A DNA stretch of 64,000 nucleotides from Eledone cirrhosa (Eukaryota): positions 10,912,001 to 10,976,000 of the forward strand of contig OZ024753.1 in the NCBI GenBank assembly GCA_964016885.1. Direction: 5' to 3'. Under the pieces are notes generated by a model that searched no databases, was not told where the DNA came from, and saw nothing but the letters and a program-made list of their open reading frames with translations. Within the stretch, counting starts at the first letter, position 1. The number at the start of each line of letters is the position of its first letter. Position numbers and translations under genes: made by a program. Positions 39,169 through 51,286 of the stretch are shown here, one piece after another.

Positions 39169-39459
39169 GCCTTCCAGTTTCATTTCACATTATATACATG
39201 TCTGTGTATATTTTTATTATTTAAAAATTATTTTTAAGTGAACATGATTTAAAAAAAATATTTTGGACTTCAGATCTAACTGTTGAAACGGCTGGAGTTC
39301 TGCCGCCGGGGTCCTGACTCTTTTCCTATTACCCACTCTACTACCCTAAGTATCGATTACTCTGGTACGTTATGGTTCATCTGGTATCCTACCACATACA
39401 TATATATTACCACAAATTAAAAGTTGAAATAAGATCTGTCTGCTTTCACCCAGAGTATG

Positions 39460-39515
<56 letters not shown>

Positions 39516-39635
39516 TATAGACATAGAATATTCGAAAATATTCTGTATGTTTATAATAAACATTTTGAAGACCTAATCGCTATAGAATAGAATACGTCAC
39601 GTATTACAATTAGATTCTCGATAAAAGCAAGGGAA

Positions 39636-39678
39636 GTAATCTACGCGTTTCATTCTCGTTAGAAATCATCAGGACTAC
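39636..39678 (-). ncRNA. Minimal type I hammerhead (inverted copy)
   Basis: Reverse complement of GTAGTC-CTGATGA-TTTCTAACGAGAAT-GAAA-CGCG-TA-GATTAC. Confidence 0.85.
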
Positions 39679-39708
39679 ATATCCAGTGCTTTTATCGAGA
39701 ATGGATAT

Positions 39709-39751
39709 GTAGTCCTGATGATTTCTAACGAGAATGAAACGCGTAGATTAC
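39709..39751 (+). ncRNA. Minimal type I hammerhead, unit 1
   Basis: GTAGTC-CTGATGA-TTTCT AACG AGAAT-GAAA-CGCG-TA-GATTAC; palindromic ACGCGT stem III; predicted cleavage after 39745. Confidence 0.9.
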
Positions 39752-40018
39752 TTCCCTTGCTTTTATCGAGAATCTAATTGTAATACGTGACGTATTCTAT
39801 TCTATAGCGATTAGGTCTTCAAAATGTTTATTATAAACATACAGAATATTTTCGAATATTCTATGTCTATATTCACATATATATCGCTATTTCAGAGCAT
39901 TTATTCCAATTTCTAATTTCTGCCGGACCGGCAACCGCTCTTTCAAACCAGTTCCTGTACACAGCTAAGTATTCTATAAGTCTCTAGCTGTGTCATTCTC
40001 GATAAAAGCACTGGATAT

Positions 40019-40061
40019 GTAGTCCTGATGATTTCTAACGAGAATGAAACGCGTAGATTAC
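40019..40061 (+). ncRNA. Minimal type I hammerhead, unit 2
   Basis: Identical to unit 1; predicted cleavage after 40055. Confidence 0.9.
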
Positions 40062-40328
40062 TTCCCTTGCTTTTATCGAGAATCTAATTGTAATACGTGA
40101 CGTATTCTATTCTATAGCGATTAGGTCTTCAAAATGTTTATTATAAACATACAGAATATTTTCGAATATTCTATGTCTATATTCACATATATATCGCTAT
40201 TTCAGAGCATTTATTCCAATTTCTAATTTCTGCCGGACCGGCAACCGCTCTTTCAAACCAGTTCCTGTACACAGCTAAGTATTCTATAAGTCTCTAGCTG
40301 TGTCATTCTCGATAAAAGCACTGGATAT

Positions 40329-40371
40329 GTAGTCCTGATGATTTCTAACGAGAATGAAACGCGTAGATTAC
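40329..40371 (+). ncRNA. Minimal type I hammerhead, unit 3
   Basis: Identical to unit 1; predicted cleavage after 40365. Confidence 0.9.
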
Positions 40372-40621
40372 TTCCCTTGCTTTTATCGAGAATCTAATTG
40401 TAATACGTGACGTATTCTATTCTATAGCGATTAGGTCTTCAAAATGTTTATTATAAACATACAGAATATTTTCGAATATTCTATGTCTATATTCACATAT
40501 ATATCGCTATTTCAGAGCATTTATTCCAATATATATATATATATATATATATGTACATATATGTATATATATATCACCAGCCCTACCCATCTGTAAACAA
40601 CATTATATATATATATATATA

Positions 40622-41180
40622 TTGGCAGTATCAGTAGAGGGTTGGACGCCATGCTTTCCACATAGTTACGTCCCTTTACGATCTGAGTTCAAATCCCGCC
40701 GAGGTTAACTTTGCCTTTCATCCTTACGGGGTTGATAAAATAAAGTACCAGTAATGCACTGGGTAATTGCTGGCCTTGTGCCTAAAGTAGAGACAATTAT
40801 ATATATATATATATATATTGGCAGTATCGGTAGAGGGTTGGACGCCATGCTTTCTAGCATAGTTACGTCCCTTTACGGACTGAGTTCAAATCCCGCCGAG
40901 GTTAACTTTGCCTTTCATCCTTACGGGGTCGATAAAATAAAGTACCAGTAATGCACTGGGTAATTGCTGGCCTTGTGCCAAAAGTAGAAACAATTATATA
41001 GGTGGTGGATTGGCAGTATTGGTAGAGGGTCTTTGCACCATAGAGTTATGGACCCTTTTGGTCTGAGTTCAAATCCCGCAGAGGTTAGCTTTGCTTTTCA
41101 TCTATACGGGGTTGATAAAATAAAGTACCAGTAATGTACTGGATAATTGCTGGCCTTGTGCCAAAAGTAGAAACCATTAT
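40622..41180 (+). mobile_element. SINE family A tandem trimer
   Basis: Copies at 40622, 40818 and 41001. Confidence 0.85.
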
Positions 41181-41409
41181 TTATTTATGTTCATTCATGG
41201 AACAAAGCCGCTACTCAAGGTTTCAATGCCAAAATTTGACCGAACCTCCAGAGTACAAAAGACATCAAATTTATGGCCTCTCCCAGACATCGCTTTTGTT
41301 CCGTATATGAAGATAATTAAATAATATAATACATTCCTGCTCTCTTCCCGATTGAACACTGTTTTCATATTCACACCATCAGATATTGCTGCACACACAC
41401 ACATATACA

Positions 41410-41761: not shown

Positions 41762-42203
41762 ATAAATAAAATAACAGGAGGCTGGACTGATGTAAATCCT
41801 TGAAAGGTTTATTATACTATGATCATTTCAATGACCGGGTTCCATATGAATCCGGTGATATCATCAGATATAGGAATATAACAAAGGAATATGTAAAAAA
41901 CCCTGGGTCCGAAAAATCAGAGACAGAGACAAAAGAGGGCGACTGACCAACTAGCTGCTTTCACCTCGGCCAGTCGCCCTCAAAGTGAAAGCAGCCGAGG
42001 TGAAAGCAGCTAGTTGGTCAGTCGCCCTCTTTTGTCTCTGTCTCTGATTTTTCGGACCCAGGGATTTTTACATATTCCTTTGTTATATTCCAATACCTGA
42101 TGATATCACCGAATTCATATGGAACCCGGTCATTGAAATGATCATAGTATAATAAACCTTTCAAGGATTTACATCAGTCCAGCCTCCTGTTATTTTATTT
42201 ATA
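41762..42203. mobile_element. Palindromic PLE-like fragment; hammerheads at 41814-41871 (-) and 42093-42150 (+)
   Basis: ATAC-CTGATGA-TATCACCG..CGGTCATT-GAAA-TGATCA-TA-GTAT; ~210-bp inverted arms; related 3' fragment at 4505-4600. Confidence 0.75.
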
Positions 42204-50914: not shown

Positions 50915-51000
50915 GACACACACACACATATATAGATATACATACACACACATATATAGATAGACATACACACACACACTCACACACATATATATATATA

Positions 51001-51220
51001 TAGTTATGTAATAAACAACATAAGATAATTATTTCATTTACCAGTGGTTTCTTGAAAGCAAACAAAATTTGCTTTCAGTCATCAGAATGAAAAAATCCTG
51101 GTGTATTTATTGAAATACACCAGGATTTTTTCATTCTGATGACTGAAAGCAAATTTTGTTTGCTTTCAAGAAACCACTGGTAAATGAAATAATTATATTA
51201 TGTTGTTTATTATATAACTA
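51001..51220. mobile_element. Near-perfect 220-bp palindrome; hammerheads at 51032-51092 (-) and 51129-51189 (+)
   Basis: TTTCATT-CTGATGA-C-TGAAAGCAAA-TTTTG-TTTGCTTTCA-A-GAAA-CCACTGG-TA-AATGAAA; centre 51109-51112. Confidence 0.85.
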
Positions 51221-51286
51221 ATAAGCTCTGTAGCCTACATAGAGCACTCTCTTTTCCTGGACCTTTCCGACGGAATTACTTCACAC

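What the first reader, a model, noticed from the sequence alone, without database searches (positions are those of the whole stretch)
39511..40530. 310-nt tandem hammerhead retrozyme with an inverted leader, a candidate self-cleaving circular RNA
Seen: three identical minimal type I hammerheads exactly 310 bp apart, plus a fourth on the opposite strand, all between (TA)n tracts. Stem III is the palindrome ACGCGU. Stem I extends through an internal loop into a perfect 16-bp helix (ATTCTCGATAAAAGCA / TGCTTTTATCGAGAAT). The unit also holds several local hairpins (AATACGT-G-ACGTATT, ATGTTTA-TTA-TAAACAT, CACAGCTA..TAGCTGTG, GCCGG-A-CCGGC). Established: metazoan non-LTR retrozymes are non-coding tandem repeats of a few hundred bp with type I hammerheads that produce circRNAs and are thought to be mobilised by Penelope-like elements; palindromic stem III allows dimeric cleavage. 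Inference: this is a young, probably expressed retrozyme family copied from a circular template, and it may be undescribed in this lineage.
Basis: partly seen in the sequence, partly recalled or inferred. Interest (0 to 1): 0.9.

Follow-up and report, generated by a model that had tools for sequence, protein, structure and literature searches.

The report
Head-to-head retrozyme arrays from RNA circles
This is one of at least 1,200 young head-to-head insertions of a 310-base hammerhead-motif repeat, and a second insertion whose nine units all share the same 14 A-to-G changes suggests that each insertion is likely copied round and round from one likely edited RNA circle by a borrowed Penelope-type enzyme, a long-proposed but unshown step.

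Summary
Confirmed and extended. The window holds 2.67 identical 310-nt units with a type I hammerhead motif, plus an inverted 192-nt arm, inside (TA)n. The genome has 16,447 exact copies of an internal 30-mer, in at least 1,223 (about 1,600) insertions. The 'inverted leader' is a second arm. 145 of 178 sampled insertions are head-to-head arrays, and 128 of 130 complete ones end at two fixed sites 26-40 nt apart, the 'tail' of Penelope-like elements (PLEs). Each insertion carries one sequence variant in nearly all units, and both arms agree in 105 of 108. Insertion-wide changes are A>G-rich (26 of 49, against 13 of 164 single-unit changes; replicated in a second sample). One insertion carries the same 14 A>G changes in both arms, and a marker of that variant occurs nowhere else. 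Best reading: a non-autonomous retrozyme whose monomer, likely circular and sometimes ADAR-edited, is reverse-transcribed repeatedly from both cut target strands by a PLE protein. Not shown: cleavage, expression, the circle and the partner PLE. A few mosaic insertions point to linear multimer templates as well.

The parts
39456..39511 (.). Left (TA)n target flank; the boundary with the element is ambiguous by a few bases
39512..39703 (-). Inverted arm, 0.62 unit; outer end at the 'short' site (unit offset about 129, offset 0 = first base after the predicted cleavage site), inner end at offset 248
39642..39672 (-). Hammerhead core on the minus strand
39702..39703 (.). Central junction of the two arms, 2-nt overlap
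39702..40530 (+). Forward arm, 2.67 identical 310-nt units; inner end at offset 266, outer end at the 'long' site, offset 164
39715..39745 (+). Hammerhead core 1 (CUGAUGA, stem II with U-U at its base, GAAA, palindromic stem III, predicted cleavage after 39745)
40025..40055 (+). Hammerhead core 2
40335..40365 (+). Hammerhead core 3
39746..40055 (+). Predicted monomer 1 (310 nt, 34.5% GC, no long ORF in six frames)
40056..40365 (+). Predicted monomer 2
39995..40083 (+). Stem I and its 16-bp extension (39995-40010 with 40068-40083; repeated at 40305-40320 with 40378-40393); pairing is kept by double-sided changes in the sister family
40230..40259 (+). Block just 3' of the two end sites, largely shared with the older sister family (also at 39920-39949); candidate protein-binding region (inference)
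40496..40530 (+). 'Tail': the stretch between the short and long end sites, present at the outer end of one arm only
40531..40574 (.). Right (TA)n target flank

Best explanation
This is one insertion of a very young, non-coding, 310-nt hammerhead repeat family whose head-to-head arrays were likely made by a Penelope-like (PLE) protein that likely cut both strands of a (TA)n target and likely reverse-transcribed one probably circular, sometimes likely ADAR-edited, RNA monomer round and round from each cut end. SHOWN in sequence: family size, two-armed anatomy, two fixed outer ends, TA target, microhomology at the centre, one variant per insertion in both arms, A>G excess on the hammerhead strand, and the 14-edit insertion. 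INFERRED: (1) arrays are transcribed, and the hammerheads, likely as dimers through the palindromic stem III, cut out 310-nt monomers that are ligated into circles (about 0.8); (2) a PLE RT-endonuclease binds the RNA and primes at two internal sites, offsets about 129-138 and 164-166, one per target strand (about 0.9); (3) each cDNA runs a variable number of rounds, and the two are joined end to end through short homologies (about 0.75); (4) A>G changes are A-to-I edits in the template RNA (about 0.85). A minority of insertions may use uncleaved linear multimers.
For: Family: 4,033 exact 43-nt hammerheads, 16,447 exact internal 30-mers, 997 + 226 long-end/TA junctions, 712 of the commonest short-end junction; reversed-pattern controls 0 in each. 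Anatomy in 178 insertions: 145 head-to-head, 2 compound, 12 single-armed, 19 cut by the fetch; 128 of 130 complete two-arm insertions have one short and one long end; 299 of 310 outer ends abut TA. An intact-ORF element in the same genome shows the same head-to-head, two-fixed-end, TA-flanked form. PMC8557442 (passages) lists inverted 5' copy, 30-40 bp tail and microsatellite bias as PLE features. PMC11167929 (parts 1-2 of 4) shows a PLE protein cutting and extending both strands and starting at two internal RNA sites that define the tail. Centre: of 86 junctions without inserted bases, 33 have >=3 nt overlap against 5.7 expected (120 measured). Template: arms agree in 105 of 108 insertions (shuffled mean 12.8, max 26); substitutions are in all units 300 times, in one unit 164 times, in between 21 times; 1,478 passes over the cleavage site show no recurring indel, and inner ends do not pile up there (6 of 290 against 10.3 expected). 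A>G: 16 of 27 insertion-wide events against 8 of 91 singles in the first sample, 14 of 26 against 5 of 73 in an independent sample (Fisher p 2e-7 and 1e-6, L256 left out). L256 has 14 A>G changes and no other new change, the same in every unit read in both arms; its 28-nt marker has 9 hits, all in that one insertion. Ribozyme: no insertion-wide change in the 16 core positions (0 of 56); 16 of 30 pairs change on both sides between this family and its sister, including C3-G8 to U3-A8 (17 sequences).
Against: No cleavage, RNA or circle was observed. Rfam does not recognise the motif. Core conservation alone is not significant (0 of 56 against 8 of 164, p = 0.21), and the covariation is mostly one split between two families. 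L202 and L068 carry minority variants at the same unit position in both arms, which one monomer circle cannot give; L059, L211 and L287 differ between arms. 34 of 120 centres have inserted bases. The ADAR neighbour rule is not seen in L256 (5' G at 3 of 14 edits against 16 of 91 A), though 0 of 12 other A>G sites have a 5' G. No PLE shares the tail sequence: the four ORF-bearing families examined do not, and only the hammerhead core resembles one of them (25 of 28 nt). Pfam names none of three of these ORFs and gives the fourth only a sub-threshold RVT_1 hit. Most sampled loci were picked by a long-end/TA pattern, and apart from the window all lie on contigs C1-C3.
Confidence: 0.75

Rival explanations
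1. Linear multimer template: a PLE protein copies long uncleaved read-through transcripts of existing arrays. Circles are by-products, or act only as templates for RNA-to-RNA rolling-circle copying that yields uniform multimers.
For: The hammerhead looks weak (1-bp stem III, U-U at the base of stem II). Mirrored minority variants in L202 and L068. In vitro a PLE used unprocessed RNA as its main substrate (PMC11167929). Seamless passes over the cleavage site fit this too.
Against: Editing of a linear multimer should differ from unit to unit. L256 has one 14-site pattern in both arms and no other locus with its marker. Single-unit changes are not A>G-rich (13 of 164). A monomer-to-multimer step is still needed, so only the RNA-replication version survives, and it also needs a circle.
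Confidence: 0.15
2. Satellite-type growth: monomers or dimers inserted first, then grew and were homogenised in place by unequal crossover and arm-to-arm gene conversion (the local amplification model in 10.64898/2026.07.22.740005).
For: Some arrays show later duplication (L051, L072, L050). Palindromic arms can convert each other, which could explain L202 and L068.
Against: Single-unit changes are only 3.7e-4 per base, and partly spread variants are rare (21, against 300 fixed and 164 single). DNA processes give no strand-specific A>G excess. Inner ends are scattered while outer ends are fixed.
Confidence: 0.06
3. The unit is only the terminal repeat (pLTR) of an autonomous PLE, seen as truncated partial tandems, and not an independent element.
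For: Same anatomy as PLE fragments in this window and genome. Earlier AI notes on other genomes reached this verdict for similar finds (unchecked).
Against: Arms reach 27-29 units with no ORF between them. No PLE-like coding sequence lies within 600 nt of the inner end of 12 of 12 true single-arm insertions. The unit has no BLAST match beyond weak AT-rich bits in 42 PLE loci, apart from a nested sister copy.
Confidence: 0.03
4. Local duplication or assembly artefact.
For: Polishing can homogenise tandem arrays; unit counts per array may be off.
Against: Over 1,200 dispersed junctions; 53 variants in 177 insertions, with single-unit and mosaic differences resolved; an identical unit in four public runs.
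Confidence: 0.01

Closest known systems
Metazoan non-LTR retrozymes (Cervera and de la Pena 2020, PMC7229834: passages and Discussion read; Li et al. 2026, 10.64898/2026.07.22.740005: parts 1-3 of 5 read)
   Same: Non-coding tandem repeat of about 300 nt, GC under 45%, one type I hammerhead per unit, thousands of copies. The weak stem III and the U-U at the base of stem II match features of the two axolotl motifs. PLEs are present in the genome.
   Different: Insertions are two-armed head-to-head arrays with fixed ends and a PLE tail. In PMC7229834 'head-to', 'orientation' and 'opposite' do not occur, and I saw no such description in the parts of Li 2026 that I read. Those papers propose circle-templated RT or local crossover without direct evidence; here insertion-wide variants and A>G edits bear on that. 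Cleavage and circRNA, shown for other retrozymes, are untested here.
Endonuclease-positive Penelope-like elements and their non-autonomous derivatives (Craig et al. 2021, PMC8557442: passages; Frangieh et al. 2024, PMC11167929: parts 1-2 of 4)
   Same: Inverted, 5'-truncated second copy; 26-40 nt tail on one end; (TA)n target; tandem copies; hammerhead. Non-autonomous Chlamys elements also make multicopy head-to-tail insertions.
   Different: No ORF. Both arms are multimers of a 310-nt unit, up to 27-29 units. No shared tail sequence with any autonomous family examined.
Canonical metazoan type I hammerheads (Cervera and de la Pena 2014, PMC4209133: passages)
   Same: Helix I 6 bp, helix II 4 bp, helix III 1-2 bp with palindromic loop, expected to cut as a dimer.
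   Different: U-U, A-U or G-U instead of G-C at 10.1-11.1; helix I extended by a 16-bp helix; no Rfam hit.
ADAR hyper-editing of inverted repeats (Porath et al. 2017, PMC5625713: passages)
   Same: Clustered A>G on one strand of a repeat that can form long double-stranded RNA; Penelope repeats in lizard are heavily edited.
   Different: Here the cluster is fixed in genomic DNA and repeated in every unit of one insertion.

Membership tests
non-LTR retrozyme | Tandem units of about 170-400 nt, low GC, non-coding | tested here: met
   310 nt, 34.5% GC, no long ORF
non-LTR retrozyme | Type I hammerhead in every unit | tested here: met
   Core and stems present; covariation with the sister family; Rfam negative
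non-LTR retrozyme | Dispersed multicopy family without LTRs or ORF | tested here: met
   PBS and PPT not searched separately
non-LTR retrozyme | Self-cleavage as monomer or dimer | not testable with these tools
   Only structure energies: closing stem III in the monomer costs about 5 kcal/mol, the intermolecular stem III duplex gives -7.5
non-LTR retrozyme | Expressed as linear and circular monomer RNA | tested here: inconclusive
   Indirect only: strand-specific A>G and uniform units
non-LTR retrozyme | Target-site duplication longer than 4 bp, when present | tested here: inconclusive
   Cannot be delimited inside (TA)n
PLE-mobilised insertion | Inverted 5'-truncated copy adjacent to the forward copy | tested here: met
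   145 of 178; 147 of 159 not cut by the fetch have two or more arms
PLE-mobilised insertion | 30-40 bp tail at one end only | tested here: met
   128 of 130; ends at offsets about 129-138 and 162-169
PLE-mobilised insertion | AT-rich or microsatellite target | tested here: met
   299 of 310 outer ends; the long end was selected for TA in most loci, the short end was not
PLE-mobilised insertion | Sequence shared with the terminal repeat of an autonomous partner | tested here: inconclusive
   Only 25 of 28 nt of the hammerhead shared with one intact family; 150 of 25,821 candidates scored
autonomous PLE | RT plus GIY-YIG ORF | tested here: not met
   No ORF in the unit or attached to arms
ADAR-edited template | Clustered A>G on one strand, in double-stranded context | tested here: met
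ADAR-edited template | Depletion of G 5' of edited A | tested here: inconclusive
   3 of 14 in L256; 0 of 12 other sites

The most novel reading that the evidence does not exclude
A PLE reverse transcriptase rolls round a single ribozyme-made circular RNA from both strands of the cut target at once, writing two multimeric arms from one molecule, and in doing so fixes ADAR edits in the germ-line genome. RNA editing would then be a main source of heritable variation in this family, and edited insertions act as single-molecule barcodes of the mechanism. The near-identical unit in runs under 18 organism labels leaves open that the circle also moves between species.
Probability: 0.6. Interest if true: 0.85.

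Novelty: new variant of a known kind. Interest (0 to 1): 0.72.

Why it matters
The retrozyme papers I read propose, without direct evidence, that circular RNAs template tandem cDNA and that PLEs supply the enzyme; the 2026 preprint says the mobilisation mechanism remains to be worked out and also invokes local crossover. This family gives genomic evidence on both points. Every typical insertion has the PLE tail-and-inversion signature, and a uniquely edited variant is repeated in all units of both arms. It supplies about 1,600 near-identical insertion events, defined priming sites and intact candidate enzymes for an in vitro test. It also suggests that A-to-I edits can become heritable through such elements.

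Tried and rejected
DNA search of the own genome with the unit: no candidate, because common words are skipped; patterns were used instead. Rfam: no hammerhead in the window or at the sister or PLE hammerheads above noise in five loci; two unrelated HH9-type hits in L134. Expression: no RNA holder listed. The 340-nt contigs in X1-X3 (310 + 30) are what a tandem DNA array also gives, so they say nothing about RNA circles. A control to see whether runs X1-X4 also hold the host SINE got no answer from the tool, so relatives, contamination and horizontal transfer are not told apart. Partner search: four ORF-bearing PLE-type families (L112, L184, L069, L186) and further fragments have other end sequences; none was accepted. 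A protein search gave 1,404 unnamed relatives and no host or clade name. Random circular permutation was rejected: outer ends are fixed. Template jumping between cleaved linear monomers was rejected: no indels or stops at the cleavage site. Selection for G-U wobbles as the only cause of the A>G excess was rejected: 34 paired C against 56 paired A, but only 2 insertion-wide C>T against 26 A>G. ARAGORN finds no tRNA in the window. Literature: no paper surfaced on octopus retrozymes or on ADAR edits fixed in retrozyme arrays; an Octopus vulgaris repeat annotation does not contain 'ribozyme' or 'retrozyme' (PMC13282606, passages). The library lacks most subscription papers, and no supplements were read. 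Rows dropped before counts: L204, L233, L234, L237 and the second array in L235 (duplicates); 45 nt at inner ends and 40 nt at outer ends; L256 from the spectrum tests.

Full report
OBSERVATION. The feature is as described. Bases 39702-40530 repeat with period 310 at 100% identity, and 39512-39703 is the reverse complement of part of the unit; both ends run into (TA)n. Four identical hammerhead cores are present, three on + and one on -. The unit is non-coding, 34.5% GC, and folds more stably than 100 of 100 shuffles. The motif has helix I of 6 bp, helix II of 4 bp above a U-U mismatch, and a palindromic stem III that can close only one pair in a monomer. PMC4209133 (passages) calls this the canonical metazoan type I form, which cuts as a dimer. 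Rfam does not detect it. Offsets below count from the first base after the predicted cleavage site.

FAMILY. The window lies on contig C13 of a 3.0-Gb genome. I take the host to be an octopus-like cephalopod from recall of its SINE and microsatellite content; no call tested this. Exact matches: 4,033 for the 43-nt hammerhead, 16,447 for an internal 30-mer, 997 and 226 for two long-end/TA junctions and 712 for the commonest short-end junction. That means at least 1,223 insertions. Scaling by the share of each junction type in my sample gives about 1,600 (my estimate), with about ten units each and about 5 Mb in all.

ANATOMY. I analysed 178 insertions: the window, 10 picked by the hammerhead pattern, 5 by the internal pattern, and the rest by long-end patterns, on C1-C3. 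145 are head-to-head, 2 compound, 12 single-armed and 19 were cut by the fetch. Of 130 complete two-arm insertions, 128 have one arm ending at the short site (offset about 129-138, inside a TA-like tract of the unit) and the other at the long site (162-169). 299 of 310 outer ends abut TA. Inner ends are scattered. Of 120 centres measured, 34 have inserted bases; of the other 86, 33 overlap by 3 nt or more against 5.7 expected. On each strand the arm next to the flank reads as antisense cDNA grown from the target's 3' end. This is the PLE pattern: inverted 5'-truncated copy, 30-40 bp tail, microsatellite target (PMC8557442, passages). In vitro a PLE protein cuts and extends both strands and starts at two internal RNA sites that bound the tail (PMC11167929, parts 1-2 of 4). 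An intact 808-codon element in this genome has the same two-ended head-to-head form in (TA)n.

NOT A PLE END. Arms reach 27-29 units with no coding sequence, and no PLE-like coding sequence adjoins 12 of 12 true single arms. I checked this because earlier unchecked AI notes on other genomes filed similar finds as PLE fragments. The partner was not identified. One intact family shares 25 of 28 nt of the hammerhead core and stem II but not the ends; one chimera points to family E.

TEMPLATE. There are 53 sequence variants in 177 insertions, yet each insertion is almost uniform, and the two arms agree in 105 of 108 cases (shuffled mean 12.8). Substitutions are present in all units 300 times, in one unit 164 times and in between 21 times; single-unit changes run at 3.7e-4 per base. 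Slow homogenisation would leave many intermediates. The cleavage site is crossed 1,478 times without recurring indels, and arms do not stop there, so the template was covalently continuous across it.

EDITING. After setting aside 12 clade-defining variants, insertion-wide changes were A>G in 16 of 27 events in the first 91 insertions, against 8 of 91 single-unit changes. I formed the editing idea on that sample, then tested 86 more: 14 of 26 against 5 of 73. Overall A>G is 26 and T>C is 6, so the bias is on the hammerhead strand. By distinct site the counts are 12 and 6 of 34, a weaker excess. The same sites (19, 258, 275) recur on several backgrounds. The ten A>G sites of the first sample are all paired in the predicted fold, but insertion-wide C>T, which would keep pairing equally well, occurs only twice. 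L256 carries 14 A>G changes and no other new change on a common background, identical in every unit read in both arms. Its marker has nine hits, all in this insertion. Hyper-editing varies from molecule to molecule (established knowledge; PMC5625713, passages, ties it to long double-stranded repeat RNA), so one edited monomer was most likely read about nine times, from both ends of the break. A donor missing from the assembly would only move that step back one round. RNA-level rolling-circle copying of an edited circle is not excluded. The ADAR neighbour rule is unclear here.

AGAINST. L202 switches variant after two units in both arms, and L068 mirrors one change; L059, L211 and L287 differ between arms. 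These need linear multimers, template switching or later gene conversion. Core positions have no insertion-wide change, but this is not significant (p = 0.21). Better support for a working ribozyme comes from the sister family: 16 of 30 pairs change on both sides, including C3-G8 to U3-A8 and 8 pairs of the long helix, though this is largely one split between two families. Cleavage, expression and the circle were not observed.

COMPARISON. It works like a metazoan non-LTR retrozyme and meets the sequence criteria; the biochemical criteria are untested. PMC7229834 (passages and Discussion) proposes circle-templated tandem cDNA and PLEs as candidates. The 2026 preprint (parts 1-3 of 5) adds co-occurrence and pLTR homology in vertebrates, invokes local amplification, and leaves the mechanism open. 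I saw no two-armed retrozyme arrays or fixed edits in these texts, and searches surfaced none; supplements and most subscription papers were not seen. Other papers in those listings were seen as listing and abstract start only.

VERDICT. A real, very young retrozyme family, scored as a new variant of a known kind. The class is known; the value is the genomic evidence for double-ended PLE priming and for repeated reading of one, sometimes edited, monomer. Interest 0.72; confidence in the full mechanism 0.75.

Noticed in passing
L256 / L323-L331 (G000:C1:380305181-380307600): Insertion with 14 A>G changes shared by the units of both arms. The edits span offsets 44-240 and spare the hammerhead and the 16-bp helix; several are unpaired in the monomer fold, which suggests editing in the long fold-back RNA of a head-to-head donor (inference).
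   Followed up: yes
L123-L152, L045, L074, L107: Older sister family, period about 318-324 nt (2,859 hits of a 24-mer), with the same ends, tail and TA target. Its hammerhead core is CUGAGGA or UUGAUAA, its stem III is longer, and the long helix has a different sequence.
   Followed up: partly
window 2255, 12631/12802, 13232, 22455, 28639/28758, 45718, 53582, 55441/55579: Many short, mostly head-to-head, TA-flanked fragments of another hammerhead-bearing family ('E') with a tail of about 88 nt; it shares a short motif with the retrozyme near the short end site.
   Followed up: partly
L195:1609-3964: Chimera: an inverted family-E arm, then a forward family-E arm that joins the retrozyme directly inside E's tail. 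Either a template switch by one enzyme (a lead to the partner) or an insertion with target deletion.
   Followed up: partly
window 41770-42200 and 51000-51270: Two more head-to-head hammerhead-core pairs of other families (41867/42097; 51085/51136).
   Followed up: no
L111-L122, L184, L069, L186: At least four PLE-type families with long open frames (808, 758, 830 and 969 codons stop to stop). One shows head-to-head insertions with ends 176 nt apart; another has 3,622 hits of its hammerhead 29-mer and ends about 68 nt apart. Naming them PLEs rests on architecture and recalled motifs, not on a Pfam hit.
   Followed up: partly
window 40597-41183: Three tandem copies of a roughly 190-nt repeat with a B-box-like motif; 70 hits in 732 kb of fetched DNA. 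It resembles octopus SINEs from recall; the host lineage was not tested by any search.
   Followed up: partly
window:39746-40365 in public runs: 20 runs from 17 studies under 18 organism labels hold 65-100% of the sampled words; the four laid show a contig identical to the unit. Relatives, contamination or horizontal spread are unresolved.
   Followed up: partly
L202, L059, L068, L072, L051: Mosaic arrays: a switch between two variants after two units in both arms (L202), a one-arm switch (L059), and signs of later internal duplication (L051, L072).
   Followed up: partly
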